The notes: generated by a model from the letters alone, not told the origin. 54,508 nucleotides of DNA from Anaerolineales bacterium (GCA_046716985.1 JBKJWG010000315.1:1-54508); one strand, 5' to 3'; positions 15,519 to 29,945 are shown, counted from the stretch's first letter. A program made the numbers and translations.

Positions 15519-17589
15519 GAAAACGCGCGAACGATCATCTCTAACCATTTGGCTTAAACCCCTCATTCTTTTTGCTGGTGTGCTGTTGCTTTTAATGACC
15601 GGGTCCGAGATGCTTAATCTCGCCTGGGGGTCCGGACATTTATTGGGTGAACTTTCCGGGAAGTGGGCAGCCACTCTCTTATCCTATTTATTTCTTGCAG
15701 CAGCCCTTTTTGTCCTTTTATTCCGCAGCCTCTATGCACCTAGAAGGCTGAACATCTTACGCGGAAGGCTTTTGGCTTTACGCGAAAAATTAGGCAAGTG
15801 GCGTGGGCTGGTTGCTTTTCTTGTCGCAGCCTTCCCAGCCTATTTTGTTTTCTATTTCCCTTGGGGTGGTCTCTTCGTTGGCTTTTTCACGCGACTGCTT
15901 GTGTTCATCCTTGCGATTTCAGGCACCACAATTCTGATCGCATCAAAAAAGGAAGGTTTATTCTCTTGGCGCGCTCTGCTATTGGCAGGCTTATTTACGG
16001 GCACTCTTCTTGTACTCGCTGAATCTTTTGCGTTGGTTAGCAATTATCCATTTGCGTTGCATTGGTCCGAAGGCAATCGCCTGTGGGATTATTCTGTACT
16101 ATTCGGCCGCGCCCGTTACAACTATCCTGCTAGCGAGCCGGTCTTCGCTTGGATCGATCCGGCCCGCCAAGCTTTGTGGGGACTTCCTTTCCTGATGCCT
16201 TCTCTTCCAATTTGGGCCGCGCGTTTGTGGGGCGCGTTCCTTACAACAATTCCTTATGCACTTTTGGGTTGGTTCGCCTTCCGACCACTAAAAGAAGCCC
16301 GTGGACAATGGGTGGCCGGAGGCATCTGGGCGTTGATCTTCTTGAACCAGGGACCGATCTACACACCCCTGATCTTCAGTGCGATCCTGGTTGCAGCTAC
16401 CAGGCGCAGGCCGATGTGGCTGGCGTTGCCGCTAGTCTACGTTGCGGGCCTGTACGCGGGTAGCAGCCGCTTCACTTGGGCGTTCGCACCTGCAATATGG
16501 GCGGCGCTGCTTGCTCTAAGCGATGGTGTGTTACTCCATACGAAACTGACTACTAGGGACTGGCTGCGGGCTGCGGCGTTGGGCTTGGCAGGGCTTTGGA
16601 CAAAAGGCTTGCCCATCTTATTGGGTATATTGGCTGGACTATTGCCGATTTCGTCGTCTGTGGTTGCGACACCAGCACCAAGCGGCATGCCAGGCGAGCA
16701 AGGTATAGACACCATACAGAACTTGCAAGCCACGGCGACCGGGCAGCCCTTTATTTGGTATCGCCTCTTCCCTAACGATGTTTATCCTCCGGGAATTTTG
16801 CTTGGGCTGGCTTTAGCCGCCCTGCCCTTAATTCTGCTGCTTTGGTATTTAGCCCACCGTGGATTCTGGAAAACTGTTCTTTGGCAGCGCATTGCCCTGT
16901 TGCTCGGCTGCGGGTCGTTCCTGGTGGTTGGCGTGATCGCCAGCGTTAAGGTGGGCGGTGGCGCCGACTTGCACAACTTGGATATGTTCCTGGTCAGCCT
17001 GGTGCTGCTTGCAGGCATTGCATGGGAAGCCGGATTTTATAAACGCCTGACTAACTTCTTGCAAGAAAATTCGCGCGTGCGCTGGCTGCTGGCTGCCATG
17101 ATCCTGATCCCAGCGTTCACGCCGATGGCGAGCGGAAAGCCCTTGGTGTTGCCCACGGCAGAACGCACACAGTTTGTGCTTGAGCGCATCCAAGATAAGA
17201 TGACGTGCGCGCGGGAATTTGGCGAAGTGCTTTTTATGGACCAACGCCAGTTGATCACTTTTGGTCAAATGGGTGACCTGCCCTTGATTGTTGATTACGA
17301 AAAGAAATTTGTGATGGACCAGGCTCTGGCCGGCAATGAGGCTTATTTTGCACCGTTCCGTGCGCATCTGGCTGCCGGCCGATTCGCGCTAATCGTCAGC
17401 GAACGCGAAGGAACACTATACAAAGATCTCGATCAAGAGAGCGTTGGCGATAGCCTGGTCGAAGAAAATAATGCCTGGGTGCGCTGGGTGAGCACGCCGC
17501 TGCTGCAGTATTATGAGTCGGTGGGAAATTTCAAGGATGCGGCAGTAGAATTATTCATGCCCATCGAGCGCAACTTTGACTGCCCCTAA
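15508..17589 (+). CDS. polytopic integral membrane protein of unknown function with a C-terminal soluble domain
   Basis: 693 aa. The ATG overlaps the upstream gene by 11 nt. A basic N-terminus 'MSPKKTRERSS' is followed by more than 10 hydrophobic segments. The last ~170 aa are hydrophilic ('FMDQRQLITFGQMGDLPLIVDYEKKFVMDQ'). I recognise no family motif. Confidence 0.6.
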   Translation: MSPKKTRERSSLTIWLKPLILFAGVLLLLMTGSEMLNLAWGSGHLLGELSGKWAATLLSYLFLAAALFVLLFRSLYAPRRLNILRGRLLALREKLGKWRGLVAFLVAAFPAYFVFYFPWGGLFVGFFTRLLVFILAISGTTILIASKKEGLFSWRALLLAGLFTGTLLVLAESFALVSNYPFALHWSEGNRLWDYSVLFGRARYNYPASEPVFAWIDPARQALWGLPFLMPSLPIWAARLWGAFLTTIPYALLGWFAFRPLKEARGQWVAGGIWALIFLNQGPIYTPLIFSAILVAATRRRPMWLALPLVYVAGLYAGSSRFTWAFAPAIWAALLALSDGVLLHTKLTTRDWLRAAALGLAGLWTKGLPILLGILAGLLPISSSVVATPAPSGMPGEQGIDTIQNLQATATGQPFIWYRLFPNDVYPPGILLGLALAALPLILLLWYLAHRGFWKTVLWQRIALLLGCGSFLVVGVIASVKVGGGADLHNLDMFLVSLVLLAGIAWEAGFYKRLTNFLQENSRVRWLLAAMILIPAFTPMASGKPLVLPTAERTQFVLERIQDKMTCAREFGEVLFMDQRQLITFGQMGDLPLIVDYEKKFVMDQALAGNEAYFAPFRAHLAAGRFALIVSEREGTLYKDLDQESVGDSLVEENNAWVRWVSTPLLQYYESVGNFKDAAVELFMPIERNFDCP

Positions 17590-20224
17590 AAAAAGGTCCA
17601 GACCCGACACAAATGAATTGAACCAGCGCCGCCCCTTGCGGCTCTATTTTTTGCTGCCAGCGCTCGGCGCGCTGGCAGCCTTGGCGGCGGTCTTTGCTAC
17701 CCCCAGCGAGGGTAGCAATTCCTGGCTGCTCGGCCTCTCCAAAACGCGCTGGCTGTTGGTGGCCGGATTGTTTATTGCGGCCTTGGTCTTCAGCGCAGCG
17801 TTTTGGACCAATTGGCGCAATACAAAAACCTGGCGTGGGCTTCAAAAGAAAATATCAATCGTTTTCGAAAATCGAATTGTTTACATTGTTTTGTTGGTGC
17901 TTAGCATAGGGGGGATAGTGTTATTTTTTTATCTAATCCTGCTGACATTTAAATTCACGGACGATTTAATTCAAGCGCGACTGTTGCGCTTGCTGCCCTT
18001 TTTGCTTTGGCTGCTTTTGCTCAGCGCGCAAACTGTGGTTGCTTTGCCTTTGTTGCGCTATGGCAAGGTCTCGCGGCTGCGAGTTCTGCCGTGGCGCAAA
18101 ATCCTGTTGCCCGCTGTAGTCGCCTTCGGCTTGCTTGGGCTGGTCGGGCTACTCATTTCCACGACACGTCTGGGTCTGCAGCCCGACCGCACCGGGTGGG
18201 ATATCCCTGGCGTTCCGCTGATGGCAACCCAGATCTTGTTGGCTTGGCTGGGCGCGCTACTGGTTTACGGGGTCCTTCGCTGGATTGAAAAAAGAACTGG
18301 ATGGAAGCTCTCGCGAATGGACTTATTGGCTTGCTTGTCGCTATGGCTGCTTGCTATCTTTCTGTGGCAATCGCAACCATTGACGCCCACTTTTTTCGCG
18401 CCCACCCCGCAACCGCCCAACTATGAATACTATCCATACTCAGATGCGGCTTCTCACGACTTGGTTGCCCAAAACCTTTTGATCGGCGAAAGCTTCGGTC
18501 AAGCGGCCGAAAAACCCCTTTACAGTTTTTTTCTATCTATCTTGCATACATTGGTCGGCCAGAATTATTTGAATGTGGCTGCCGCGCAAGTTGTCGTGTT
18601 GGCTTTGCTGCCGGCGGTGCTGTATTTGCTGGCCAGTCAAATGCAGCATCGTTTCTCAGGAGCGCTGCTTGCCTTAGCCGTGATTTTGCGCGAGCGCAAT
18701 ACGATTGCGCTGTCCGGCCAGATCGACGTTTCGCATTCCAAACTATTGATGACCGATCTGCCCACCGCGCTGGTGCTGGCATTATTCACGCTCCTTTTGT
18801 TTCGCTGGCTCAAAGCCGATCGGCGCGCTTTGCACTGGCCGCTGCTGGTGGGCGGCGCACTGGGCGGACTGCTGCTACTGCGTTCGCAAACTTTGATCTT
18901 GCTACCGCTAATAGTTTTGTTGGCCTTGTGGCGCGCAGGGATGGGATGGCGCATTCGCAGCGTGTACGCAGGCGTGCTCTTGCTGGGCTTTGCTCTGGTG
19001 GCGATGCCTTGGATGCTGCGCAACGCTGCCCGCACGGGGCAGTTCGGCTTTTCGCAACCTTTACAAGCTTTGTATTTGGCGAAGCAATACAGCCTGACAC
19101 CGGAAATTAGCGACCCGGGCTTTCCACCAGACACACCTCTTTCGGATTATGTCTCATTAGGTTTTGCACACGTGGCTGATTTCGTAAGCACGCATCCGGG
19201 CGAGGTAGCGCGTTTTATTACGGCCCATTTCCTTCACAACGAGGTTTCTTCGTTTCTAGCCTTACCGATGCGCTTTGATCTAACCGACAAGATCGTCACC
19301 TTCTATAACCTGCGCCCCTATTGGATCGGCGCGGAAGACCGCTTATGGAGCGAGTGTTGCTCATTGAACGCCCACATCGCAAAAAACCCTTATTGGGATA
19401 AATGGAATGGCGTTTTTCCGCCGGAAGCCCGTTTGCCTATTGCCTTCAATCTAGCCATGCTGGCTTTGGGCCTTGGCGCGGCCTGGCAGCGTAATCGTTG
19501 GCTGGGTCTGCTACCTGCCGGCTTACACGTGATCTACAACTTAAGCACCGCCGTGGCGCGCGTTTCCGGCTGGCGCCTGAACCTACCAGTCGATTGGGTG
19601 CTCTTGCTGTATTACTGTTTGGGCATCGGGCAGCTTACTTTGTGGGGCTGGGCCTATATTTCTGCTTCCCCACAAGTTGCTGCGCTCAAAGAAAAGAAAA
19701 ACAAACCAGTTTTCGGTTGGAGAAGAGAAAAGCTGACCCAATCGGCGGCGCTGATGCTGGTAGGGGCACTTCTCCTGCCCTTATCCGAAATCCTCATCCC
19801 CGCTCGATATCAACCAATTGACCGTGCCGCAGCAGTTGTCCAATGGCAAGCATCAAAGCTCGCCGCGCACACCTCGTTGGATATAGACGTCTTCCTAGAA
19901 CAACCCAACGCGGTAATACTGACCGGCCGCGCCCTGTGGCCGCGTTATTACGGCGCAGGCGCGGGCGAGCCGGGCGACCAGTGGCCGGCTTTCAACCCCC
20001 TGCCATTTGCCCGCCTCGGATTTGTGCTGATCGGGCAGCAAGTAGACCAGGTGGTGCTGGCATTGCGGGCCGCGCCGCCAGCTTTTCCGATGGCGAGCGA
20101 CGTAGTTGTCTTCGCTTGCGAGGAAGACAACTATTTGCGCGCCATGGCCGTCATCTTCCCGCAGGGCGAAGCAGCCGCCCTGCTTACCGATTTCGGTACG
20201 TTTTCCTGTTCAGCGTCGCCCTAA
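17576..20224 (+). CDS. large GT-C-like (ArnT/PMT_2-like) membrane glycosyltransferase, paralog A
   Basis: 882 aa with a TTG start overlapping the upstream gene by 14 nt. It has many TM segments and an acidic first-loop block 'YPYSDAASHDLVAQNLLIGESFG'. Long conserved blocks are shared with 25787-28390 ('SHSKLLMTDLPTAL', 'LLLRSQTL', 'ARVSGWRLNLPVDWVLLLYYCLGIGQL'). The C-terminal ~150 aa are soluble. Confidence 0.6.
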   Translation: MTAPKKRSRPDTNELNQRRPLRLYFLLPALGALAALAAVFATPSEGSNSWLLGLSKTRWLLVAGLFIAALVFSAAFWTNWRNTKTWRGLQKKISIVFENRIVYIVLLVLSIGGIVLFFYLILLTFKFTDDLIQARLLRLLPFLLWLLLLSAQTVVALPLLRYGKVSRLRVLPWRKILLPAVVAFGLLGLVGLLISTTRLGLQPDRTGWDIPGVPLMATQILLAWLGALLVYGVLRWIEKRTGWKLSRMDLLACLSLWLLAIFLWQSQPLTPTFFAPTPQPPNYEYYPYSDAASHDLVAQNLLIGESFGQAAEKPLYSFFLSILHTLVGQNYLNVAAAQVVVLALLPAVLYLLASQMQHRFSGALLALAVILRERNTIALSGQIDVSHSKLLMTDLPTALVLALFTLLLFRWLKADRRALHWPLLVGGALGGLLLLRSQTLILLPLIVLLALWRAGMGWRIRSVYAGVLLLGFALVAMPWMLRNAARTGQFGFSQPLQALYLAKQYSLTPEISDPGFPPDTPLSDYVSLGFAHVADFVSTHPGEVARFITAHFLHNEVSSFLALPMRFDLTDKIVTFYNLRPYWIGAEDRLWSECCSLNAHIAKNPYWDKWNGVFPPEARLPIAFNLAMLALGLGAAWQRNRWLGLLPAGLHVIYNLSTAVARVSGWRLNLPVDWVLLLYYCLGIGQLTLWGWAYISASPQVAALKEKKNKPVFGWRREKLTQSAALMLVGALLLPLSEILIPARYQPIDRAAAVVQWQASKLAAHTSLDIDVFLEQPNAVILTGRALWPRYYGAGAGEPGDQWPAFNPLPFARLGFVLIGQQVDQVVLALRAAPPAFPMASDVVVFACEEDNYLRAMAVIFPQGEAAALLTDFGTFSCSASP

Positions 20225-20257
20225 GGGCCCCATCTTCAAAACGGTATAATCTTCGCG

Positions 20258-20279
20258 GCGCCTCTTTCGAGGCGCTTTT
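20258..20279 (+). terminator. short GC hairpin plus T-tract (weak terminator or SD-sequestering structure)
   Basis: GCGCCTC (20258-20264) pairs with GAGGCGC (20269-20275) across loop TTTC, followed by TTTT (20276-20279). A TATAAT hexamer lies at 20245-20250. The right arm holds the only GAGG upstream of the ATG at 20283. Confidence 0.35.
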
Positions 20280-20282
20280 ACT

Positions 20283-21767
20283 ATGACCATTGCCCTGATC
20301 AATACCAATTTTGTGGTGCAGCGCAATGACCCGCTCACGACGGGCATTGTGTATATGCCGATCAGCCTGGCTTACCTGGCCGCCGCCCTGCGCGCCGCCA
20401 AGTACTCTGTCAAGGTGATCGACGCTTACGCGGCCGCCCCGCGTCGTAACCGGCGGGAGGGTAACTTCCTCTTTTTCGGCTTGGGTGAAAAAGAATTACT
20501 GGCTGAGCTGCCTCAAGACTTGGGCGCTGTTTTTGTTTATGCCATCAATCTCACCAATCACATATCCACCATTGAGATTGTTCGGGCTGTGAAACGCGCC
20601 CATCCTAAGGTTCCCGTGATCGTGCTGGAGAACACGCAAGCGGTAACCGCCTACGCACTGTCTTTAGTTGCCGCCGAGTTCTACGCAGTGGGCGCGGATT
20701 ACATCTTGACTGGCGAAGCCGAGCGCCGCGCCCCGCAGCTGCTGGCCGCGCTCGAGAAAGGTGCTGACGAAAAGGCACTGCGCGTTATCGACGGGCTTGG
20801 CACGCCGAATTTTTACAGCTCGCCCATCGGTTTCTTGCTGGATAAAAACTTGGATCAACTGCCCTTCCCGGCATGGGATCTCTTTCCGCTCGAAAACTAT
20901 TGGTCGCTGCGTTTCGCCCATGGGCCGCTTTCTGCCCGCCGCTACCTGCCGCTGCTTACTTCGCGCGGCTGCCCATATCCATGTGGGTTTTGCGTGGTAC
21001 CTGCCACCAATAATCAAAAGTGGCGCCCGCGCTCGGCCGCCAATGTGGTCGACGAAATCGAACACTTTGCAAAGACTCTCGGTGTGCGCGAGTTCCACAT
21101 CGAAGATTTGGATCCCACGATTTCCGATCCGCGTATCCGCGAAACCTGCGCAGAAATTATTCGCCGCAATTTAAAGATAACTTGGAAGATTGCGGCAGGC
21201 ACCAAAGTGGAAACGATGCGCGATGAAGAAACCATCGACCTGATGGCTGAGGCGGGCTGTCGCTATATCTCGATTTCGCCCGAGACCGGCTCGCCGCGTC
21301 TGCTTAAGCTGATGCGCAAGCCGTTCGATCTCGAGCATGCCGTGCGCATTGTCAAACGCATGAACCAGGCAGACATCCGCTCGCAGGCTTGTTTCGTGCT
21401 TGGCTACCCAGGCGAGACCGAAGAAGATCTGCAAATGACTTGGGAACTTGTGCGTGAGCTGACGCGCGTTGGGGTCGATGAGATCGCCCTGTTCATCATC
21501 ACACCCGTGCCGGGCTCCTCGATCCACGAACAATTCTCTGGCTACGCCAGTCTGTCTGAGCTCAACTTCAGCCCAACCTGGCGCAGCGATTATCCAACGC
21601 TCAATCGTTTTCGCCTTCGTCTATACGCCCATTTTTTGTGGTGGAAATTGCGTTATCATCCGCTCAAGTTGCTGCGTCAACCATTCAATTTTCTGCTTCG
21701 CCGCTTTGAGACCAAGATGGAAATGGTTCCGTACCGAGCCTTGGTGCTGCGCTGGCTGGCGCGATGA
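20283..21767 (+). CDS. B12-binding-domain radical SAM enzyme (COG1032 type)
   Basis: 494 aa. The N-terminal region 'PISLAYLAAALRAAKYSVKVIDAY' looks like a cobalamin-binding Rossmann domain. The radical SAM cluster motif is 'LLTSRGCPYPCGFCVVP' (CX3CX2C). The downstream TIM-barrel region contains 'GYPGETEEDL'. Confidence 0.8.
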   Translation: MTIALINTNFVVQRNDPLTTGIVYMPISLAYLAAALRAAKYSVKVIDAYAAAPRRNRREGNFLFFGLGEKELLAELPQDLGAVFVYAINLTNHISTIEIVRAVKRAHPKVPVIVLENTQAVTAYALSLVAAEFYAVGADYILTGEAERRAPQLLAALEKGADEKALRVIDGLGTPNFYSSPIGFLLDKNLDQLPFPAWDLFPLENYWSLRFAHGPLSARRYLPLLTSRGCPYPCGFCVVPATNNQKWRPRSAANVVDEIEHFAKTLGVREFHIEDLDPTISDPRIRETCAEIIRRNLKITWKIAAGTKVETMRDEETIDLMAEAGCRYISISPETGSPRLLKLMRKPFDLEHAVRIVKRMNQADIRSQACFVLGYPGETEEDLQMTWELVRELTRVGVDEIALFIITPVPGSSIHEQFSGYASLSELNFSPTWRSDYPTLNRFRLRLYAHFLWWKLRYHPLKLLRQPFNFLLRRFETKMEMVPYRALVLRWLAR

Positions 21768-22396
21768 TGGCAAAAAACCCGACAATAGACAAGCGCAAAG
21801 TTTCTTACGGCGAGGAACGTACTTTTCGTGGCCTTGAAGATATAGCTATCCAGCGGCGTCTGATCAAAGCCCGCAGGCTGCTTGAGATCCTGCTGTACGA
21901 AAACCCAGAAAAGGAACTGCACATCATCGAACTCGGTTGCGGTTTTTGGGCGCGAAATCTGCAAATGTTGAGCGAAGATTTTGCCGGAGTGCAATTCAGC
22001 GGCCTAGACCTCACCGTTACGAAGGAAAAGATTGGTTCGGTCAACTTAATTCAAACCGATCTAACCAAATGGGAGCCAGATCGAACGTACGGCGGCGTGC
22101 TTTCCCTGGCCGTGCTTGAGCACCTGCTTGACCCGCAGCAACATTTTGAGGTGATCGCAACTTGTCTCATGAAGGGCGGCCTGGCTGGCCTCACCACACC
22201 GACCCCACCGGCGCATTTCATTTTGGAGCGATTGGCGCGCTTGGGAATCTTTGATCGAGCCGAGATCAAAGATCACAAAATGTATTTCACCGAAAATGGG
22301 CTGACCAGCTTAGCCAAGGGGGCAGGCTTGGTTGTGGAAGAATATAGGGAAATGTCGCTAGGCATGAATCAATGGATGCTCTTACGCAAGCAGTGA
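21764..22396 (+). CDS. class I SAM-dependent methyltransferase
   Basis: ATGA overlap with the radical SAM gene. 'IIELGCGFWARNL', 'LSLAVLEHLLDPQQ' and 'LMKGGLAGLTTP'. Confidence 0.65.
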   Translation: MMAKNPTIDKRKVSYGEERTFRGLEDIAIQRRLIKARRLLEILLYENPEKELHIIELGCGFWARNLQMLSEDFAGVQFSGLDLTVTKEKIGSVNLIQTDLTKWEPDRTYGGVLSLAVLEHLLDPQQHFEVIATCLMKGGLAGLTTPTPPAHFILERLARLGIFDRAEIKDHKMYFTENGLTSLAKGAGLVVEEYREMSLGMNQWMLLRKQ

Positions 22397-23345: not shown

Positions 23346-23348
23346 CTG

Positions 23349-24281
23349 ATGGACGAGCGCAGCCAAAAATACAATGCTCTTCTAGAGCGCGCCCCTTGCA
23401 ATTTGTGCGGGTCGGATGATTTCGAGGTCGTGTATCCGCCGCGCTACGAGCAAGCCAAACCGGATGAGATCCTCAACACCTTCCGTTCTTCGGGCGACGA
23501 AGTTTTGCTGGATCAACTGGTGCGCTGCAAAAATTGCGGCTTGCAATATCTGAATCCGCGGCTCAAAGCAGATGTGGTGCTGGAAGGTTATGGCGCCGGC
23601 AGCGATGAGACCTTTATCTCACAAGCCGCCGGCCGCGAACGCACGTTTGCGAAGTCACTGAAATTTATTGAAAAGTTTCGCTCTCAGCGGGGTCGCTTGC
23701 TGGATGTGGGCACGGCGGGAGGCTCGTTCCTAGCGGTGGCCAAGCAAACCGGCTGGGAAGCGGCCGGCTGCGAGCCCAACCGATGGCTGTGCGAATGGGG
23801 CAACAAGCAATATGGCTTGAAGATCGTGCCTGGCACGATCTTCGATATGAAGCTGCCGGACGCCGCCTTCGATGTGGTCACTCTATGGGATGTGCTCGAA
23901 CACACCCCCGATCCCAAGGCGGTGCTCAAAGAATGCGCTCGCGTGCTAAAACCAGGCGGCTTGCTGGTGGTCAACTATCCCGACATTTATTCCTCCATTG
24001 CGCGCCTAATGGGCCGCCGCTGGGTCTTCTTACTTTCGGTCCATCTTTATTATTTCACCAGCGAAACGCTAAAAGCTATGCTGAGCCAGGTTGGCTTTCG
24101 TCAGCTAGCACGCCGCACGCACTGGCAAACGCTCGAGCTCGGTTACATTCTCTTCCGCATGGGAACCTATTTGGGGGGCTTGGCTCGCCTGCTAGGCCGT
24201 GTAGTCAAAGCACTGCGCTTGTCCACGTTGCAAATTCCATACTGGATGGGCCAAATGCTGGTCATCGCCGAAAAGATTTAA
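23349..24281 (+). CDS. class I SAM-dependent methyltransferase with N-terminal Cys4 zinc-ribbon-like element
   Basis: 'CNLCGS...CKNCG' precedes motif I 'LLDVGTAGGSFLAVAKQTG'. 'FDVVTLWDVLEHTPDP' and 'LKPGGLLVVNYPD' complete the core. Confidence 0.8.
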   Translation: MDERSQKYNALLERAPCNLCGSDDFEVVYPPRYEQAKPDEILNTFRSSGDEVLLDQLVRCKNCGLQYLNPRLKADVVLEGYGAGSDETFISQAAGRERTFAKSLKFIEKFRSQRGRLLDVGTAGGSFLAVAKQTGWEAAGCEPNRWLCEWGNKQYGLKIVPGTIFDMKLPDAAFDVVTLWDVLEHTPDPKAVLKECARVLKPGGLLVVNYPDIYSSIARLMGRRWVFLLSVHLYYFTSETLKAMLSQVGFRQLARRTHWQTLELGYILFRMGTYLGGLARLLGRVVKALRLSTLQIPYWMGQMLVIAEKI

Positions 24282-24338
24282 TTCCAGTTATCATTTCATA
24301 AGCAGGGAAGATCGGGGCGGCTATCAGCCGTCCTCTGT

Positions 24339-25772
24339 TTGGAGCGCATATTGGCTGATAAGCAAAAAATCGTGGTCCTTGGTGCCGGGGTGGGCGGCTT
24401 GGCCGCTGGCTATTTCTTGGCGCGCACCGGCAAATATGATGTGACAGTCCTGGAAAAAGAGGCGGTCATCGGCGGCCTGTGCGGCAGCTTCGAGCACGAT
24501 GGCTTTGTGCTCGACTATGGCGCCCACAAACTCTATTCGGTGATCCCCGGTGTGTTGGATGAGATCCGCAACCTGATGGGGCCGCGGCTATTGCAACTTC
24601 CGAAAAAGAATCGCCTGTTTCTTGAAGGTCATTTGGTGGACTATCCCTTGCAACTCGGGAACCTGGCTCGTGTGCTCGGACCAGTACGCTTTTTCAAACT
24701 AGGGTTTGGTTATGTGCTCGAAATCGTCAAGGGCCTTTTTCAGCGACAACAGCCGCGCTCGTATGAGGAATACATCGTCAAGCGCTTTGGGCGCCCGACT
24801 TATGAATTGGTATTCGAACCGCTGGCTGACAAGGTGTGGGGCGATCCGTCAACACTCCATCCCGAAATGGCGCGCACGCGCCTGCCCGCCTCGGGCGGAG
24901 CAGAGGTGATTCTTAAACTTCTTGGACTTAAAAAGGAAAGCGCCGAGACCAACGCCGAATTTTTCTACTACCCGCGCGCCGGCTTCGGCGACTGGCCGCA
25001 GGCTTTGGCCGAAGGCATCCGCGCCCATGACGGCGTGGTGCTCACCGGCGTGGATGTGCAATCGCTCGAAATGAAGAATGGCCGTGCGCGCGGCGTGCGC
25101 ACGCAGATTGTCGGTCAGCCGAAGCAATTCGATTGTGATTATTTGGTGTCGTCGCTGCCCTTACCTATGCTTGGGCGCATGATCTTCGGCAACACTGATC
25201 CCGAATTCAACAAGGCCGCCGAAGGTTTGCAATTTCGTCATCTGGTCTTGGTTTATATCTTTCTGAAGCGCCCGCGCGTTTTCGAGGACCAATGGATCTT
25301 TTTCCCGCAGCGTAACGTGGTCTTCAGCCGCCTCTTTGAGCAAAAGCAGATGAATCCAGAGTTGGGCCCGGCCGATCGCACCGCTATCACGGCCGACTTT
25401 ACTGCCTCCGAGGGCAGCGACTTGTGGAAGGCTAGTGACGAAGACCTGGCTCAACGCGTCGTGGATGGGTTAGTGCAAACCGGTTTCGTCAAACCCGATG
25501 AGGTGCAAAGCCATTTAGTGGTTCGCAAGAGAAATTTCTATCCGCGCTACGACTTGGAATATGCGGACAAGATGAAATTGGTCAGCGACAAGCTGCGCGG
25601 GGTACCTAATTTGCTCACCACCGGCCGCATTGGCATGTATAACTACAACAATTCGGACCACTGCGCCGATATGGGCCGTTTCATTGCCGAACACCTGGCC
25701 GCAGGCGAGGCGCCTGCGCAGATCTGGCAGCAACTTGAGCGCCGCGTGGCTGAATACAAGATCGTAGACTAA
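24339..25772 (+). CDS. FAD-dependent Rossmann flavoenzyme, UDP-galactopyranose-mutase-like
   Basis: TTG start, with an alternative TTG at 24351. Dinucleotide fold 'KIVVLGAGVGGLAAGYFLA...VLEKEAVIGG'. 'DYGAHKLYS' and the C-terminal 'TTGRIGMYNYNNSDH' resemble the 'YGAHIFHT' and 'GGRLAEYKYYDM' blocks of bacterial Glf as I recall them. The generic flavoenzyme call is solid. The mutase call is tentative. Confidence 0.55.
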   Translation: MERILADKQKIVVLGAGVGGLAAGYFLARTGKYDVTVLEKEAVIGGLCGSFEHDGFVLDYGAHKLYSVIPGVLDEIRNLMGPRLLQLPKKNRLFLEGHLVDYPLQLGNLARVLGPVRFFKLGFGYVLEIVKGLFQRQQPRSYEEYIVKRFGRPTYELVFEPLADKVWGDPSTLHPEMARTRLPASGGAEVILKLLGLKKESAETNAEFFYYPRAGFGDWPQALAEGIRAHDGVVLTGVDVQSLEMKNGRARGVRTQIVGQPKQFDCDYLVSSLPLPMLGRMIFGNTDPEFNKAAEGLQFRHLVLVYIFLKRPRVFEDQWIFFPQRNVVFSRLFEQKQMNPELGPADRTAITADFTASEGSDLWKASDEDLAQRVVDGLVQTGFVKPDEVQSHLVVRKRNFYPRYDLEYADKMKLVSDKLRGVPNLLTTGRIGMYNYNNSDHCADMGRFIAEHLAAGEAPAQIWQQLERRVAEYKIVD

Positions 25773-25786
25773 TAAGCAAACCTGAA

Positions 25787-28390
25787 ATGCCGAGCAAGCC
25801 TTCAAAGAATTTGAATGCTTTTTGGCGAGTGAGCCTAATCCTACTCGCCATTAGCGCCTGGGTAGCGCTTGCTTGGCTGCTGGCCGCTCCCAGTGAAGCC
25901 GGCGCGGCTGTTTTCTTGGGCTACTCAGCCGAGCGCCTGGCACTGGCCGCGGCCGCACTGCTGCCCGCTTTGCTTTTTTCTTGGCTGGCCTGGCGCGCGT
26001 GGAAAAGTCCTTCCTGGCTGGAGAAAACTACTGCAAGAATACAAGCAGCGCTTAAACCTGTTTCTCGCTTTTGGCTTGCACTTGTTTTATCACTGTTGCT
26101 GTTCCTGGTTAGCTGGGTGCTTTTCTTTTTACCTGCTGAGCGAGTTGCAAGTTTTATCGGCGCTTACTCGCTTTATCTCGCTAGGTTAAAGCCCTTACTT
26201 TTCTTTGGCATTTTGCTCGGGGCCATATCAGCCGGTTGGTTAACCTTTCAACACTATGGTTTGAACGCTAAGACTTTGCGCGGTGAAAGCAAGATTTTGC
26301 GCCCGGCGCTGCTCATCTTTGTTCTTCTATTGTTGGTCTGGGGACTGCTTGCCGCCATAGGTCTAGGCCTGGGCTTCGACGCCACCATCTGGAACGCACC
26401 AGGAGCGCCAATTCTCAGTAGTCAGGTCTTCTTATCTCTGCTATTCGCCCTGTTAATTTTGGTCGCCGCCCTTACTCTACGCAAAAGATTTCCAAAAGCT
26501 TTTTTATTTAAGCGACTCGATCTAACCCTGGCCGCACTGGTCTGGATCCTGGCGGCGGTTCTGTGGCTGCGCCAACCCGCTCAGCCCACCTATTACAGTG
26601 CGGAGCCGCGACCGCCCAACTTCGAAAGTTATCCAGTCTCAGATGCCTTCAACCATGATGCCATCGCCAACAATGTCTTGATCGGGCAGGGTTTTCACTT
26701 CGGCGGCTTGGTTGCCATTCGCCGCCCGCTGTATGTAATGTTTCTGGCCGGGCTTGAGGCTCTGCTGGGTCCCAATTACGACGCGGTCGTATCGGCGCAG
26801 GTGGTTGTCCTCGCCCTATTCCCCGCCCTACTTTATTTATTGGGCAGCAAATTGCACAATCGTTTGTCCGGATTGTTGCTAGCCGGCCTGATCACATTTC
26901 GAGAAGCCAACTCGATCGCGCTGGGTCACGTGGCCAATATGTCGCATGCCAAATTGCTCATGGCCGATTTGCCTACCGCGCTCAGCATGGCCGCCTTGGG
27001 CCTGGCTGCGGTAGTCTGGCTGCGCGGCTCGCCGCGCAATGGGGTGGCGGGCTTAATGACCGGCGGGCTGCTGGGCGCCTTTATTTTGCTGCGCTCGCAA
27101 ACGCTCACACTAATCCCCTTCTTTGTTGTGTTGGCTGTTTTGGTGTGGGGCTGGCGAGTGGCGTGGAAGCAGGCCTTGCTGTTTGTCGTCGGCGTCGCGT
27201 TAATTGCAAGTCCGTGGATCATTCGCAATCGAGTGCAAATGGGTCAGTGGGCGATCGAGGATTCTGTGGTCTCCGGCTTTCTGGCCAATCGTTACCGCAT
27301 TGAGCCCGGCACCTTTGGTTTGCCTTTCCTGGCCGGCGAAAGCGAGGGCGAGTACTATTCTCGCCAGATGGCTTCGGTGCGCCAGTTCGCCGTGCAAAAC
27401 CCAGGTTACGTCGCCGGTTTTGTCGCCGACAACTTCGTGCGCAACGAACTGCTCAATTTCATGGCCATGCCGGTCTCGCTGCAATTGCGCGACCTGGAAT
27501 CGCATGTGCGCGAGCTGCCTTATTGGCCCAGCTGGGATGGCCACCTGGCTGCCGAGAGCGCGCTGCCCATGCTGGCCAATTTATTTTTGGTCGGGCTGGG
27601 CCTCGTGGTAGCCTGGCAGCAGGCGCGCTGGGTCGGCCTGGTGCCATTGTTCATCAATATCGGCTTCACCATGAATTTGGCTCTGGCGCGCGTTTCGGGC
27701 TGGCGCTACAACCTGCCTGTCGATTGGACCGTGTTGCTGTATTACGCCTTGGGCATTGGGCAATTGCTTTTGTGGAGCATGTTTTTGCTGCAAGGCAATT
27801 CAAGGATAAAGAAATTCATTCCGAATTTGTCGATCATCGAAAAAACCAAAAATAAAAAAACCGGCTGGCCCACTAGAGCTCAATGGGCAGCGGCGACGCT
27901 CGCGCTTTTGTTGCTCGGCAATTCATTTCTGATCATCGAAGCACTCTCGCAGCCGCGCTATCATAAATTGTCGGCCCAGGAGGCGAGCGCGATTTTGGGT
28001 CCTGCAGAAACGCAAATTGGCGAGGAAACTCAAAAGGCACAGCTGGAAGAAATGGTGGCTCAAGGCCAACTCGATATATTGAATGGTCGTGCTTTGTACC
28101 CGAGCTTTTATCGCGCCGGAGAGGGCGTGGCCGAAAGCGATTTTGCTTTGACCATGCCGCTCGATTTCAAGCGTGTGACCTTTTATCTGGTCGGGCCCGA
28201 AGCCGCCTCAGTGATATTGCGCGTCGATAGCCAGCAGCTTGAATTCCCGGCTGGCAGCGACGTGCTCGTTCTGCGTTGCGGCACCAACGCGCTGGAGGCA
28301 TTGGCCATAGTGGTGACGTACGCGGATCAACGAAATGAATTGATAATCTCGTCTGATTTGGCCGCAGCCTGCCCGACTTTGAGTTCTTGA
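25787..28390 (+). CDS. large GT-C-like (ArnT/PMT_2-like) membrane glycosyltransferase, paralog B
   Basis: 867 aa. First-loop block 'YPVSDAFNHDAIANNVLIGQGFH'. 'SHAKLLMADLPTAL', 'ILLRSQTL' and 'ARVSGWRYNLPVDWTVLLYYALGIGQL' are collinear with 17576-20224. Confidence 0.6.
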   Translation: MPSKPSKNLNAFWRVSLILLAISAWVALAWLLAAPSEAGAAVFLGYSAERLALAAAALLPALLFSWLAWRAWKSPSWLEKTTARIQAALKPVSRFWLALVLSLLLFLVSWVLFFLPAERVASFIGAYSLYLARLKPLLFFGILLGAISAGWLTFQHYGLNAKTLRGESKILRPALLIFVLLLLVWGLLAAIGLGLGFDATIWNAPGAPILSSQVFLSLLFALLILVAALTLRKRFPKAFLFKRLDLTLAALVWILAAVLWLRQPAQPTYYSAEPRPPNFESYPVSDAFNHDAIANNVLIGQGFHFGGLVAIRRPLYVMFLAGLEALLGPNYDAVVSAQVVVLALFPALLYLLGSKLHNRLSGLLLAGLITFREANSIALGHVANMSHAKLLMADLPTALSMAALGLAAVVWLRGSPRNGVAGLMTGGLLGAFILLRSQTLTLIPFFVVLAVLVWGWRVAWKQALLFVVGVALIASPWIIRNRVQMGQWAIEDSVVSGFLANRYRIEPGTFGLPFLAGESEGEYYSRQMASVRQFAVQNPGYVAGFVADNFVRNELLNFMAMPVSLQLRDLESHVRELPYWPSWDGHLAAESALPMLANLFLVGLGLVVAWQQARWVGLVPLFINIGFTMNLALARVSGWRYNLPVDWTVLLYYALGIGQLLLWSMFLLQGNSRIKKFIPNLSIIEKTKNKKTGWPTRAQWAAATLALLLLGNSFLIIEALSQPRYHKLSAQEASAILGPAETQIGEETQKAQLEEMVAQGQLDILNGRALYPSFYRAGEGVAESDFALTMPLDFKRVTFYLVGPEAASVILRVDSQQLEFPAGSDVLVLRCGTNALEALAIVVTYADQRNELIISSDLAAACPTLSS

Positions 28391-28391
28391 C

Positions 28392-29945
28392 ATGGCCAAG
28401 TCGAAGAAATCTACTCGGCAACCCTCGCGAAATTTCGTGCCGGGTCTTTGGGTTCTCGGTTCGCTATTAGCCTTGTCTTTTATCTCGGCTTGGGTTTCCA
28501 GTTCATTCAAGTCAATATCAAGCTGGCCCTCTTTTGCCGCTGTACTCATGTTTTGTGCTCTGATTTTCTGGTTGACCTGGCGCGCCCTCCAACAAGAAAA
28601 GCCACCCCGTTGGCTGCTGTATTTGACTATTGGTGCGGCAGTATTCCGACTGGCGCTCGGGGTGCTCTGGTCCGTAGCGCTACCCGCCGGCGGCTACGAC
28701 ACCGAGGTGCAGAATGCCGGCTACGTGATGGAAGATGCCTTCAACCGCGACCGCGCCGGGTGGGAGTTAGCTCAATCTGGGCAGCCACTAATCGACGCTT
28801 TTCGCGGTTACAGCGTCACCGATCAATATGGCGGCTTACTCTTCTTGAGCGCAGGTATCTATCGATATTTAGGGAGCACGGAACACCAGCCTTTGTTGGT
28901 GCTTACACTGGCGGCAGCCGTCTCTGGGCTGGCAGTAGCCTTCACCTGGGCCTTCGCTCGCCGCGCTTGGGGTGAGCGAGTGGCCCTGCTGGCGGCATGG
29001 GGGTTGGCTCTTTATCCTGAGGCCGCGCTTTTGGGTTCTTCGCAAATGCGTGAGGCTTTCACAGTTTGCCTTGTTCCCGTGGCTTTGTTTGGCCTTCAGC
29101 GCGTGATGAAGAAAATCGACAGAACTGGCATCCTGCTTTTGGCTATTCCAATGGCCGCGGCCACTTTGCTTACGCGGCCGTTTGTGTTCTCTTTGGTTTT
29201 GCTTTTAGCTTTGGCGTATCTAGCTCTTGATAAATGGCGTTTGCTGCGCGACCGTAGGCTGTGGTTTGCAGCAGGTTTGGCTGCCGTGATTGGGTTGGCT
29301 TACCTTGTTTTTTCCGCTGACCTTGCCCAGCTGTGGCTGGTGCAGTCTGCGCGCTGGCAGGCCTACGTCAGCGCCAACGCTTCTGGGTGGGTGGCGCGTG
29401 AATTTGAGCGCATGCCACTCTGGCAGCAGCTGCCTGCGTTGATGATCTACGGGATTTTCCGGCCGCTGCTGCCGGCAGCGCTCACCGCCGGCGGCCCGCC
29501 CATCTGGGTTGCTATCGGCATCTGGCGTTCGGTGGGCTGGACAATCTTGCTGTCACTTCTTGTTTACGCTACTTATTTAGTTTTGCGTTCGCCAGCTTGG
29601 AAACAGTTGCCCGGCGCTTTGCTTCTCTCCAGCTGGATCGTTAGCCTGACAGCTTCTTATCGCGGCGGCGGCGATCTGTGGGACAACCCGCGCTACCGCA
29701 GCGCCTTCGCAGCCGTGCAAGTGGCCCTCGCGGCTTGGGCCTGGGTGCGCCACACGGAGACCAAAGATCCCTGGCTGCGGCGCGCCTTTGGCTCCGGCAT
29801 GCAGATGATGGCCTGGTTCATTCCCTGGTATCTGCGCCGTTATGTGGGTTTGCCCTGGTGGCCAATAGTTGAGCTTTATCAAGTCATCGGCCTTGGTTTG
29901 GCCAGCGCAGCCCTTTACGTGATCTGGGATTGGACCGGCTCTTGA
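28392..29945 (+). CDS. polytopic membrane protein, possible GT-C-type glycosyltransferase
   Basis: 517 aa. The ATG follows the upstream stop after 1 nt. There are more than 10 hydrophobic segments and an acidic loop after TM2, 'GYVMEDAFNRDRAGWELA'. The family is not recognised with certainty. Confidence 0.45.
   Translation: MAKSKKSTRQPSRNFVPGLWVLGSLLALSFISAWVSSSFKSISSWPSFAAVLMFCALIFWLTWRALQQEKPPRWLLYLTIGAAVFRLALGVLWSVALPAGGYDTEVQNAGYVMEDAFNRDRAGWELAQSGQPLIDAFRGYSVTDQYGGLLFLSAGIYRYLGSTEHQPLLVLTLAAAVSGLAVAFTWAFARRAWGERVALLAAWGLALYPEAALLGSSQMREAFTVCLVPVALFGLQRVMKKIDRTGILLLAIPMAAATLLTRPFVFSLVLLLALAYLALDKWRLLRDRRLWFAAGLAAVIGLAYLVFSADLAQLWLVQSARWQAYVSANASGWVAREFERMPLWQQLPALMIYGIFRPLLPAALTAGGPPIWVAIGIWRSVGWTILLSLLVYATYLVLRSPAWKQLPGALLLSSWIVSLTASYRGGGDLWDNPRYRSAFAAVQVALAAWAWVRHTETKDPWLRRAFGSGMQMMAWFIPWYLRRYVGLPWWPIVELYQVIGLGLASAALYVIWDWTGS

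What the first reader, a model, noticed from the sequence alone, without database searches (positions are those of the whole stretch)
17576..29945. GT-C paralog pair bracketing a candidate 'lipid-linked donor tailoring' cassette (radical SAM, MTase, polyprenyl-P GT2, MTase, UGM-like flavoenzyme)
Seen: two ~870-aa paralogs share the collinear blocks 'SH[SA]KLLM[TA]DLPTAL', 'LLRSQTL' and 'ARVSGWR.NLPVDW..LLYY.LGIGQL'. They flank five enzymes spaced by 0-60 nt. A third 517-aa polytopic protein follows after a 1-nt gap.

Established: GtrB/ArnC/DPM1-type GT2 enzymes with a C-terminal TM hairpin make polyprenyl-P-monosaccharides. GT-C transferases consume these donors outside the membrane (Gtr glucosylation, ArnC/ArnT, Ppm1/PMT, DPA/Emb).

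Inference: the interposed B12-radical SAM enzyme, two SAM MTases and the flavoenzyme tailor that donor sugar before GT-C transfer. Possible chemistry is C- or O-methylation, furanose formation, ring rearrangement or oxidation. I do not know this gene combination from any characterised system.
Basis: partly seen in the sequence, partly recalled or inferred. Interest (0 to 1): 0.8.

Follow-up and report, generated by a model that had tools for sequence, protein, structure and literature searches.

The report
Portable side-chain sugar glycosylation cassette
An uncultured Anaerolineales (Chloroflexota) bacterium carries a portable five-to-six-gene cassette that pairs a lipid-linked-sugar synthase and its membrane transferase with a radical SAM enzyme, methyltransferase(s) and a galactopyranose-mutase-like flavoenzyme, which most likely make an unusual, still unknown, modified sugar for the cell surface.

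Summary
The GT2 has the predicted C-terminal two-helix membrane anchor and resembles polyprenyl-phosphate hexose synthases (AglJ, DPMS, ArnC).

The evolutionary unit is not the bracketed 8-gene block. It is a cassette: [A-type GT-C]-rSAM-(optional 210-aa MTase)-GT2-MTase-flavoenzyme. Every Anaerolineae locus with an rSAM ortholog and enough contig to judge carries the whole quartet (16 of 19 rSAM-positive loci, out of 75 scanned). The cassette is inserted into the Wzm/Wzt glycan cluster, placed after paralog B, or standing alone among housekeeping genes. Other metagenomic lineages keep the four enzymes in other orders, beside non-orthologous GT-Cs (PMT_2, GT87).

Paralog B and the 517-aa protein belong to the flanking core cluster.

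The flavoenzyme keeps every sugar, β-phosphate and flavin contact of UDP-galactopyranose mutase. It has invariantly lost the α-phosphate and ribose contacts.

Verdict: a new variant of the known three-component (synthase/flippase/GT-C) extracytoplasmic glycosylation systems, with unprecedented donor-tailoring enzymes. The chemistry, and whether tailoring happens on the nucleotide sugar or on the lipid-linked sugar, are unresolved.

The parts
17576..20224 (+). A-type GT-C-like polytopic transferase (882 aa), the cassette's cognate transferase
   Evidence: PMT_2 E 2e-4, below the Pfam threshold. It is a paralog of the modelled B protein, whose Foldseek top 15 hits are all GT-C enzymes. In 17 loci the GT-C directly upstream of the rSAM scores higher against A than against B.
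20283..21767 (+). Class-B-type (B12-domain) radical SAM enzyme, 494 aa
   Evidence: Radical_SAM E 8e-24 and B12-binding at 23.5 bits. The CX3CX2C motif at C230/C234/C237 is invariant. Foldseek finds TsrM at 5e-16, then AprD4, MgmA, OxsB and TokK. Orthologs are 57-94% identical across lineages.
21764..22396 (+). Optional 210-aa class I SAM methyltransferase
   Evidence: Methyltransf_23 E 1e-10. It is present in some cassettes only, for example L003, L014, L021, L028, L031, L078 and L082, and absent in L001, L004, L009, L038, L043 and L053.
22401..23345 (+). Polyprenyl-phosphate hexose synthase-type GT2 with a C-terminal TM hairpin (314 aa)
   Evidence: Glycos_transf_2 E 5e-20. NCBIfam AglJ 219.6 bits, plus Dol-P-hexose transferase, PpgS and ArnC. 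PDB hits are DPMS 5mlz and ArnC. TM helices at 238-266 and 272-299. It is the only GT2 in the window with TM helices.
23349..24281 (+). 310-aa SAM methyltransferase with an N-terminal CxxC...CxxC zinc-ribbon-like region, a core cassette member
   Evidence: Methyltransf_23 E 3e-27. Sequence read directly. It co-occurs with the rSAM even in the flavoenzyme-less class II modules, at 35-44% identity.
24339..25772 (+). UDP-galactopyranose-mutase-like FAD enzyme (PRK07208 type), about 473-477 aa
   Evidence: Best PDB matches are eukaryote-type UGMs aligned nearly full length, E 1.5e-11. The UGM catalytic set is conserved in 29 of 29 orthologs, while Y162L, N163A and Y317F are invariant.
25787..28390 (+). 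B-type GT-C-like paralog (867 aa), part of the flanking core cluster and not of the cassette
   Evidence: AF2 model pLDDT 87. Foldseek top hits are STT3, AglB, PglB, ALG3, AftA, ArnT and Pmt1. Clear B orthologs are followed by the 517-aa gene, and they occur without the cassette in L005-L008 and L011.
28392..29945 (+). 517-aa PMT_2-family GT-C, core cluster
   Evidence: PMT_2 E 1.4e-6, 29.1 bits, above the 26.1-bit threshold. It is syntenic with paralog B in all core clusters.
15508..17589 (+). 693-aa polytopic membrane protein of unknown family. It forms the upstream core boundary of the insertion site
   Evidence: No Pfam or NCBIfam hit. Many TM segments. It directly abuts paralog B in cassette-less clusters.
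29996..34636 (+). Core context: MarR_EPS regulator, two SDR epimerase/dehydratases, and the Wzm/Wzt ABC exporter (Wzt with a Wzt_C domain)
   Evidence: The synteny is conserved in L001-L011, L079, L085 and L158.

Best explanation
The region holds a self-contained accessory cassette: A-type GT-C, B12-type radical SAM enzyme, optional MTase, GtrB/AglJ-type GT2, MTase and a UGM-like flavoenzyme. It is inserted into the core of a Wzm/Wzt (ABC-transporter-dependent) cell-surface glycan cluster of an Anaerolineales bacterium.

Proposed mechanism:
1. The GT2 loads a hexose from a nucleotide sugar onto polyprenyl phosphate at the cytoplasmic face.
2. The flavoenzyme contracts the pyranose ring to a furanose by UGM chemistry.
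3. The radical SAM enzyme, most likely a C-methylase, and the SAM MTase(s), most likely O-methylases, decorate that sugar. This has to happen in the cytoplasm, where SAM, reductant and cobalamin are available, so it happens before flipping.
4. An unidentified flippase exports the lipid-linked donor.
5. The A-type GT-C transfers the tailored sugar onto the exported glycan or another envelope acceptor.

Shown here: the gene content, the family-level assignments and the conserved co-occurrence. Inferred: the order of the steps, the substrate stage (nucleotide sugar or lipid-linked sugar), the identity of the sugar and the acceptor.
For: 1. Module integrity.
- Among 75 Anaerolineae loci fetched through the GT-C, 19 have an rSAM ortholog. 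The three that lack a full quartet (L010, L013, L036) end at a contig edge. The other 16 all carry GT2, the 310-aa MTase and the flavoenzyme.
- In 17 of these loci an A-type GT-C lies directly upstream of the rSAM.

2. Portability.
- The cassette lies between the 693-aa gene and paralog B (window, L001, L003, L004, L009, L021, L028, L031, L079, L080).
- It replaces paralog B in L014, and follows a B-position GT-C in L010, L015 and L023.
- It stands alone between LysM and NUDIX/Rho/M23 genes in L038, L043 and L053. The main clusters of those same MAGs (L006, L005, L007) lack it.

3. Non-orthologous GT-C partners and shuffled order elsewhere.
- L076: rSAM-GT2-MT-FAD-PMT_2 GT-C.
- L077: rSAM-FAD-GT2-MT-PMT_2 GT-C.
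- L083: a GT-C related to L077's (56% identity), carrying a CBM_4_9 domain.
- L084 and L096: PMT_2 proteins. L115: a GT87 protein about 1.2 kb upstream.

4. The GT2 is synthase-type and has a TM hairpin. It is the only such GT2 in the 54-kb window.

5. The flavoenzyme keeps H63, Y104, W167, R182, W315, R327, Y419, R447, Y453 and N457 of A. fumigatus UGM in 29 of 29 orthologs. Residue roles are taken from PMC3322874.

6. The GT-C fold of the paralog family is supported by a pLDDT-87 model whose top 15 PDB hits are all GT-C enzymes. D286 is invariant in the first loop of the GT-C core.

7. Precedent exists for auxiliary enzymes that edit lipid-linked donors in three-component systems: the ORF13 epimerase and DprE1/E2 (PMC11127046).
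Against: - No flippase (GtrA/SMR, MATE or Wzx) is encoded in the cassette or in the stand-alone loci. Only L095 has a Wzx-like gene next to it.
- GT-C fold support is weak numerically (Foldseek E 2e-3, TM 0.27-0.45). A sequence profile of the family finds nothing in the PDB.
- The rSAM chemistry is open. Its structural neighbours include the sugar diol-dehydratase AprD4 and the ring-contracting OxsB as well as methylases. The rSAM model is only pLDDT 70, and poor around the Fe-S loop.
- rSAM homologs at 44-55% identity sit in a different module: MT, nucleotidyltransferase, soluble GT2, rSAM and a CofD::GT2 fusion, with no flavoenzyme. The rSAM/MT pair is therefore not intrinsically tied to lipid-linked sugars.
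- No glycan structure, biochemistry or cultured host is available. All close homologs come from MAGs or metagenomes.
Confidence: 0.6

Rival explanations
1. Nucleotide-sugar-level tailoring only. The flavoenzyme is an ordinary NDP-hexopyranose mutase, and the rSAM and MTases act on the NDP-sugar. The GT2 then simply loads the finished sugar onto polyprenyl phosphate, and nothing is edited on the lipid.
For: All characterised UGM-family enzymes use nucleotide sugars. The uracil-stacking residues Y104 and W167 are conserved. Class II relatives of the rSAM/MT pair sit next to a nucleotidyltransferase, which suggests nucleotide-activated substrates. No TM segment is predicted in the rSAM, MTases or flavoenzyme beyond borderline windows over Rossmann-type N-terminal regions.
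Against: Y162, N163 and Y317 contact the diphosphate, the ribose O2/O3 and the α-phosphate in AfUGM (PMC3322874). They are invariantly L, A and F in 29 of 29 cassette orthologs. An unlinked paralog (L083_FAD2) keeps Y, T and Y. The Pfam GLF and TIGR00031 thresholds are not reached.
Confidence: 0.3
2. The radical SAM enzyme is not a methylase. It performs a deoxygenation or dehydration (AprD4-like) or a ring rearrangement or contraction (OxsB/HpnJ-like) on the sugar, and the SAM MTases supply the only methyl groups.
For: AprD4 is the best PDB sequence hit (E 1.4e-16) and the fifth-ranked structural hit, with OxsB ninth. HpnJ scores 102 bits in NCBIfam. The Pfam B12-binding hit is below threshold (23.5 against 32.1 bits).
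Against: The top structural hit is TsrM. MgmA and TokK, which are cobalamin methylases, also rank high. The best NCBIfam hits are P- and C-methyltransferases. Many orthologs carry a precomputed PF02310 hit.
Confidence: 0.3
3. The rSAM and flavoenzyme modify the polyprenyl lipid carrier, not the sugar. This would be methylation or saturation of isoprene units, as hopanoid methylases and CrtI/RetSat-type enzymes do.
For: The flavoenzyme belongs to the amine-oxidase/CrtI superfamily, with weak hits to HpnE and CrtI. The rSAM has weak hits to HpnR, HpnJ and the ladderane-lipid rSAM.
Against: Those hits cover only the N-terminal dinucleotide-binding motif (residues 11-87). The UGM alignment spans nearly the full length and preserves the sugar-binding and catalytic residues.
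Confidence: 0.05
4. The enzymes are neighbours of convenience. The rSAM, MTases and flavoenzyme act on the main-chain polymer or on unrelated metabolites, and are merely embedded in a large glycan cluster.
For: The window holds many other MTases, GT2/GT4 enzymes and sugar-modifying enzymes.
Against: The five genes stay together when moved out of the glycan cluster into a housekeeping context (L038, L043, L053). They also stay together across gene-order shuffles and GT-C replacement.
Confidence: 0.05

Closest known systems
Three-component extracytoplasmic glycosylation systems (GtrB-type polyprenyl-P-sugar synthase, flippase and GT-C), such as Gtr in Shigella/Salmonella, GacI/GacL, CsbB/YfhO and ArnC/ArnT
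   Same: A TM-anchored GT2 synthase is encoded next to a polytopic GT-C. The association is with an ABC-transporter-exported polymer that would be decorated after export. The unit is modular and horizontally portable.
   Different: No dedicated flippase gene. Three or four extra cytoplasmic enzymes (class-B rSAM, one or two MTases, a UGM-like flavoenzyme) are fixed members. The GT-C is a new ~870-aa family with an extra N-terminal 6-7-TM bundle, and it does not reach the threshold of any Pfam GT-C model.
Pentofuranose three-component systems with auxiliary epimerases (Citrobacter youngae O1/O2 ORF12-15, GT136; mycobacterial DPPRS/DprE1/DprE2/Emb-Aft) - PMC11127046
   Same: The donor sugar is edited after or around its attachment to polyprenyl phosphate and before GT-C transfer. 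Furanose side chains result. An accessory enzyme decides the sugar's identity. The GT-C carries an extra extracytoplasmic β-domain.
   Different: Those systems start from PRPP with a UbiA-type synthase and use SDR or DprE1/E2 epimerases. Here the synthase is a GT2, and the editing enzymes are a UGM-like flavoenzyme, a radical SAM enzyme and SAM MTases.
UDP-galactopyranose mutase (Glf/UGM), especially the eukaryote-type enzymes (A. fumigatus, T. cruzi)
   Same: Near-full-length alignment. H63, R182, R327, Y419, R447, Y453, N457, W315 and W167 are conserved, which is the catalytic, sugar-binding and β-phosphate-binding set.
   Different: About 20% identity. The scores are below the GLF and TIGR00031 thresholds. 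The α-phosphate and ribose contacts are invariantly replaced by hydrophobic residues (Y162L, N163A, Y317F). The protein belongs to the uncharacterised PRK07208 group.
Class B (cobalamin-dependent) radical SAM enzymes acting on sugars or phosphodiesters (GenK, GenD1, Fom3, the AprD4 diol-dehydratase, OxsB)
   Same: An N-terminal Rossmann-like domain followed by a CX3CX2C radical SAM barrel. Structural neighbours are TsrM, AprD4, MgmA, OxsB and TokK.
   Different: No family-level match; the best NCBIfam score is 146 bits against a 575-bit cut-off. A conserved ~60-residue basic, aromatic C-terminal extension is present. The genomic partner set (GT2, GT-C, UGM-like enzyme) is not described for any of these enzymes. 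Listing GenK, GenD1 and Fom3 as precedents rests on my own knowledge.

Membership tests
Three-component (synthase/flippase/GT-C) glycosylation system | GT2 polyprenyl-phosphate sugar synthase with a C-terminal TM anchor | tested here: met
   AglJ 219.6 bits, plus Dol-P-hexose transferase, PpgS and ArnC hits. PDB hits DPMS 5mlz and ArnC. Two TM helices at 238-299. Orthologs have 2-3 TM helices.
Three-component (synthase/flippase/GT-C) glycosylation system | GT-C-fold polytopic transferase encoded with the synthase | tested here: met
   AF2 model of the paralog, pLDDT 87. The top 15 Foldseek PDB hits are all GT-C enzymes, though weak (E 2e-3, TM 0.27-0.45). PMT_2 is sub-threshold in paralog A. 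In other lineages the partner is a bona fide PMT_2 or GT87 protein.
Three-component (synthase/flippase/GT-C) glycosylation system | Dedicated small flippase (GtrA/SMR, MATE or Wzx) in the unit | tested here: not met
   No such gene lies in the cassette, in the window next to it, or in the stand-alone loci L038, L043 and L053. A Wzx-like gene follows the flavoenzyme only in L095.
Three-component (synthase/flippase/GT-C) glycosylation system | Formation of a polyprenyl-P-monosaccharide and its transfer outside the membrane | not testable with these tools
   Needs membrane assays, LC-MS and glycan analysis.
UDP-galactopyranose mutase (PF03275 GLF / TIGR00031) | Score above the curated family thresholds | tested here: not met
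   GLF 23.4 bits against 26.3. TIGR00031 28 bits against 303.75. The best NCBIfam hit is PRK07208.1-4 at 263 bits against 389.
UDP-galactopyranose mutase (PF03275 GLF / TIGR00031) | Catalytic, flavin-, sugar- and β-phosphate-binding residues (H63, R182, R327, Y419, R447, Y453; AfUGM numbering) | tested here: met
   All are conserved in the window protein and in 29 of 29 cassette orthologs. The residue list comes from Table 2 of PMC3322874.
UDP-galactopyranose mutase (PF03275 GLF / TIGR00031) | Nucleotide contacts: Y162 (diphosphate), N163/T (ribose), Y317 or its prokaryotic equivalent (α-phosphate) | tested here: not met
   L, A and F in 29 of 29 orthologs. Roles come from PMC3322874. E373 could not be aligned.
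Class B cobalamin-dependent radical SAM enzymes | CX3CX2C cluster motif in a radical SAM barrel | tested here: met
   C230-P-Y-P-C234-G-F-C237, invariant in alignment A2. PF04055 E 8e-24.
Class B cobalamin-dependent radical SAM enzymes | N-terminal Rossmann-like cobalamin-binding domain | tested here: inconclusive
   PF02310 scores 23.5 bits against 32.1. Many orthologs do carry PF02310. The long alignments to TsrM, MgmA, OxsB and TokK also include AprD4, which has the domain but acts as a diol-dehydratase. The model is pLDDT 70.
Class B cobalamin-dependent radical SAM enzymes | Cobalamin-dependent methyl transfer | not testable with these tools
   Needs reconstitution. No cobalamin riboswitch was found in the window.
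AglJ (TIGR04182) equivalog | Score above the equivalog cut-off | tested here: not met
   219.6 bits against a 325-bit cut-off. It is related to AglJ but not an ortholog.
Pfam PMT_2 / GT39-GT83-type GT-C families | Family HMM above the gathering threshold | tested here: not met
   Paralog A scores 22 bits against 26.1, and paralog B has no hit. A profile of 21 family members finds nothing in PDB sequences. hhalign against the 517-aa PMT_2 protein finds nothing.

The most novel reading that the evidence does not exclude
The UGM-like flavoenzyme, and probably the radical SAM enzyme and MTase as well, act on the polyprenyl-phosphate-linked hexose, not on a nucleotide sugar. The invariant hydrophobic replacement of exactly the α-phosphate and ribose contacts (Y162L, N163A, Y317F), with every sugar and β-phosphate contact retained, would then mark a mutase adapted to a sugar-1-phosphate carrying a lipid in place of UMP. 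That would be the first pyranose-furanose mutase and the first radical SAM enzyme known to work on a lipid-linked monosaccharide donor. It would yield C- and O-methylated hexofuranose side chains on Chloroflexota envelope glycans.
Probability: 0.25. Interest if true: 0.85.

Novelty: new variant of a known kind. Interest (0 to 1): 0.62.

Why it matters
Extracytoplasmic glycosylation through polyprenyl-P-sugars is a general route to antigenic and structural diversity. The known ways of editing such donors are deacylation and epimerisation.

A widespread, portable module adds ring contraction, radical SAM chemistry and methylation to that route.

The module would enlarge the known chemistry of lipid-linked donors. 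It predicts unknown sugars in the poorly characterised envelopes of Anaerolineae, which are abundant in sediments, wastewater and the subsurface. It also assigns a testable function to the uncharacterised PRK07208 flavoenzyme group and to a new rSAM clade.

It separately defines a new ~870-aa GT-C family.

Tried and rejected
- Exact look-up of paralog B in the assembly index found nothing on record.
- A sequence-profile search of the GT-C family against the PDB gave no hits. Profile comparison with the 517-aa and 693-aa membrane proteins showed no relationship, and BLASTP did not either.
- I considered the basic, aromatic C-terminal tail of the rSAM as a membrane-binding amphipathic anchor, which would have argued for a lipid-linked substrate. 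I rejected it. The tail is conserved residue by residue and is equally present in class II homologs that sit next to a nucleotidyltransferase.
- Rfam and tRNA scans of the window found nothing, including no cobalamin or SAM riboswitch.
- Literature searches for the gene combination, for PRK07208 and for radical-SAM-made C-methyl furanoses in O-antigens returned nothing relevant.
- I considered 'paralog pair = recent tandem duplication around an insert' and rejected it. Each paralog has its own orthologs at 50-60% identity in other genomes, while the two are only 37% identical to each other.
- The flavoenzyme homolog search was meant to find a cultured host. It returned only MAG and metagenome proteins.
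- The search of protein representatives was not used, because it gives no genomic context.

Full report
**Observation**

The window is a 54.5-kb contig of an uncultured Anaerolineales bacterium. Its proteins recur at 100% identity in an NCBI record of exactly that length, and all relatives are Anaerolineae MAGs.

Almost the whole contig is one + strand glycan-biosynthesis cluster:
- Many GT4 and GT2 glycosyltransferases and several methyltransferases.
- A DegT aminotransferase and SDR epimerases.
- NeuB, a sulfotransferase and a PAPS-synthesis fusion.
- A MarR_EPS regulator and a Wzm/Wzt ABC exporter whose Wzt carries a Wzt_C domain.

The two ~870-aa proteins are full-length paralogs (37% identity, E 5e-135) and contain the quoted motifs.

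- Radical_SAM plus a weak B12-binding domain.
- Two class I MTases.
- A GT2 whose best family match is the dolichyl-phosphate hexose transferase AglJ (220 bits, below the equivalog cut-off).
- An amine-oxidase-fold flavoprotein of the uncharacterised PRK07208 group with a faint GLF hit.
- PMT_2 in the 517-aa protein.

The GT2 ends in two hydrophobic helices (238-266 and 272-299). Its best solved relatives are the Pyrococcus Dol-P-Man synthase and ArnC. It is the only GT2 in the whole window with TM helices.

**What the unit really is**

I fetched 75 genomic loci through the GT-C family and mapped the window's proteins onto them.

The rSAM, GT2, 310-aa MTase and flavoenzyme behave as an all-or-none quartet. 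Nineteen loci have an rSAM ortholog. Three of them (L010, L013, L036) run off a contig edge before the quartet could be completed, and the other 16 have all four genes.

In 17 loci the gene immediately upstream of the rSAM is a GT-C that scores much higher against paralog A than against paralog B.

Clear paralog B orthologs are instead followed by the 517-aa PMT_2 gene, MarR, two epimerases and Wzm/Wzt. That core exists without any cassette in L005-L008 and L011, where the 693-aa membrane protein directly abuts paralog B.

The cassette occurs in four settings:
- Between the 693-aa gene and paralog B, as in the window (also L001, L003, L004, L009, L021, L028, L031, and later L079 and L080).
- In place of paralog B (L014).
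- Downstream of a B-position GT-C (L010, L015, L023).
- Alone between a LysM gene and NUDIX/Rho/M23-peptidase genes (L038, L043, L053; Pfam). Those three loci come from the same MAGs whose main clusters (L006, L005, L007) lack it.

The 210-aa MTase is present in only some cassettes. 'Bracketing by a paralog pair' is therefore an accident of the insertion site. The functional unit is [A-type GT-C]-rSAM-(MTase)-GT2-MTase-flavoenzyme.

**Beyond Anaerolineae**

The rSAM is strikingly conserved. More than 120 clusters are at least 68% identical.

Context look-ups and a metagenome scan seeded with the rSAM show the same four enzymes in other orders, beside non-orthologous GT-Cs:
- L076: rSAM-GT2-MT-FAD, then a 648-aa PMT_2/PMT protein.
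- L077: rSAM-FAD-GT2-MT, then a 771-aa PMT_2 protein. Here the partners have diverged to 25-42% identity while the rSAM stays at 72%.
- L083: a GT-C related to L077's (56% identity) that carries a CBM_4_9 domain.
- L084: a PMT_2 protein inserted between the rSAM and the GT2, plus an unrelated extra MTase.
- L096: a PMT_2 protein. L115: a GT87 protein about 1.2 kb upstream of the rSAM.
- L095: a Wzx-like protein after the flavoenzyme.

Of the 14 loci with an rSAM at least 56% identical and at least 5 kb of downstream sequence, 12 carry the quartet composition (counting L095, which has a more divergent MTase, and the diverged L077).

Keeping the four enzyme types while the GT-C is replaced by members of other GT-C families is the strongest evidence here that they jointly produce a donor for a GT-C.

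More distant rSAMs (44-55% identity, mostly marine) sit in a different conserved module: an MT310-like MTase, an IspD/MobA-like nucleotidyltransferase, a soluble GT2, the rSAM and a CofD::GT2 fusion, with no flavoenzyme. The rSAM/MTase pair is therefore the older association. It is not by itself diagnostic of lipid-linked substrates.

**The individual enzymes**

*Flavoenzyme.* Its best solved relatives are eukaryote-type UDP-galactopyranose mutases, aligned over nearly the full length (E 1.5e-11). I rebuilt the A. fumigatus numbering from that alignment. All 20 residues of Table 2 in PMC3322874 checked out. I then aligned 29 cassette orthologs.
- Conserved in 29 of 29: H63, Y104, W167, R182, W315, R327, Y419, R447, Y453 and N457. 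These are the flavin-loop histidine, the two essential arginines and the sugar and β-phosphate contacts.
- Invariantly replaced by L, A and F: Y162 (diphosphate), N163 (ribose O2/O3) and Y317 (α-phosphate). F158 is likewise V.
- An unlinked paralog in L083 keeps Y, T and Y at those three positions.

UGM-type ring contraction is therefore plausible. The part of the pocket that holds the nucleotide has changed in a consistent, hydrophobic direction.

This fits a non-UDP aglycone, possibly the polyprenyl chain. It rests on an alignment at about 20% identity and is an inference.

*Radical SAM enzyme.* It has a canonical, invariant CX3CX2C motif. A moderate-confidence model (pLDDT 70) has as nearest structures TsrM, AprD4, MgmA, MiaB, OxsB and TokK. 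That is the two-domain class B architecture. The set includes methylases, a sugar diol-dehydratase and a ring-contracting enzyme, so C-methylation is the most likely chemistry but not the only one.

*GT-C paralogs.* They hit no Pfam model above threshold, and a profile of the family finds nothing in PDB sequences. A pLDDT-87 model of paralog B retrieves only GT-C enzymes in its top 15: STT3, AglB, PglB, ALG3, AftA, ArnT, Pmt1 and DPY19. The scores are weak (E at best 2e-3, TM 0.2-0.45).

The family has an invariant Asp (D286 in 'YPxSDAxxHD') at the start of the first loop helix of the core. It also has an extra N-terminal bundle of 6-7 TM helices and a C-terminal β-sandwich that may bind the acceptor glycan.

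**Mechanism**

SAM, reduced flavin, the Fe-S reductant and cobalamin are cytoplasmic, while GT-C transfer is extracytoplasmic. Any tailoring of the transferred sugar must therefore come before flipping. This follows from established knowledge of these systems.

The most economical model has these steps:
1. A hexose is loaded onto polyprenyl phosphate by the GT2.
2. The UGM-like enzyme contracts its ring.
3. The rSAM and the MTase(s) modify it.
4. It is flipped by an unidentified transporter.
5. The A-type GT-C transfers it, most likely onto the Wzm/Wzt-exported polymer of the cluster into which the cassette is usually inserted.

The order of steps 1-3 and the substrate stage are not resolved. 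The acceptor could also be a protein or another polymer, because the cassette also works from a stand-alone locus.

**Comparison with known systems**

This works like the three-component systems (Gtr, GacI/L, ArnC/T and others). It resembles most closely the recently described pentofuranose systems, in which an auxiliary epimerase edits the Und-P-linked donor (PMC11127046). Those authors state that they know of no other epimerase examples in O-polysaccharide side-chain systems.

The cassette differs in three ways:
- It lacks a dedicated flippase.
- Its transferase belongs to a new GT-C family.
- It fixes a class B radical SAM enzyme, a UGM-like flavoenzyme with altered nucleotide contacts and one or two MTases as obligatory partners.

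I found no description of this combination in the searchable literature. All close homologs carry only generic annotations such as 'FAD-dependent oxidoreductase', 'protoporphyrinogen oxidase' or 'anaerobic Mg-protoporphyrin cyclase'.

**Verdict**

This is a new variant of a known kind of system, defined more sharply than in the finding as a portable 5-6-gene cassette, not a bracketed 8-gene block. The most novel reading still allowed is ring contraction and radical SAM chemistry on the lipid-linked sugar itself, at roughly one chance in four.

Noticed in passing
window 47248-48843 (-) and 48847-50478 (-): A second tandem paralog pair (52% identity, E 4e-177) of ~530-540-aa hydrophobic proteins with no Pfam hit. 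They share an N-terminal 'FDDAMISMQYA.NLA.G.GLVWNAGGERVEG.SNPLW' motif that looks like a GT-C first-loop acidic motif.
   Followed up: partly
window 1-54508: Only one GT2 with TM helices is present (22401-23345). At least four polytopic GT-C-like or unknown membrane proteins lie nearby (693 aa, A, B, 517 aa), plus the minus-strand pair. The lipid-linked donors for paralog B and the 517-aa PMT_2 protein must therefore come from this GT2 or from genes elsewhere.
   Followed up: partly
window 45164-46258 and 51111-52871: A sulfotransferase and an ATP-sulfurylase/APS-kinase (PAPS synthesis) fusion lie in the same cluster, so the glycan is probably sulfated as well as heavily methylated.
   Followed up: no
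window 34558-40074: Downstream of Wzm/Wzt lie a KpsC/S-like Capsule_synth protein, an MTase, a PseB/CapD-like dehydratase, an RmlD-like reductase and a NeuB-type nonulosonic acid synthase. This suggests a nonulosonic acid and a capsule-like lipid-linker chemistry in a Chloroflexota glycan.
   Followed up: no
L127 7642-13415 (also L117-L119, L122, L123, L126, L130-L133, L143, L148, L153, L155): A distinct conserved marine 'class II' module built around a 44-55% identical rSAM: MT310-like MTase, IspD/MobA-like nucleotidyltransferase, soluble GT2, rSAM and a CofD-like::GT2 fusion. It is surrounded by 10-TM proteins, is uncharacterised, and is reminiscent of Fom1/Fom3-type logic.
   Followed up: partly
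L071 14188-15085; L158 7128-8052: The cassette's GT2 is split into two ORFs in two independent assemblies. This is either a frameshift pseudogene or a sequencing error.
   Followed up: no
window 25787-28390 (model residues 1-240 and 762-854): The ~870-aa GT-C family carries an extra N-terminal bundle of 6-7 TM helices ahead of the GT-C core, and a C-terminal β-sandwich. No flippase is encoded in the cassette, so the extra bundle is a candidate for donor handling. This was not tested.
   Followed up: no
window 24339: The flavoenzyme's TTG start is probably a few codons too far upstream. Orthologs are almost uniformly 473 aa, and the 477-aa translation itself was not returned at 100% identity by the homolog search.
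   Followed up: no
L024 2072-5828; L066: A cassette variant in which a 666-aa unknown protein (minus strand) and a 576-aa sulfatase-like protein are inserted between the rSAM and the MTase-GT2-MTase-FAD genes. A B-like GT-C lies downstream (adjacent in L066, after another 453-aa ORF in L024) in place of an upstream A-type one.
   Followed up: partly
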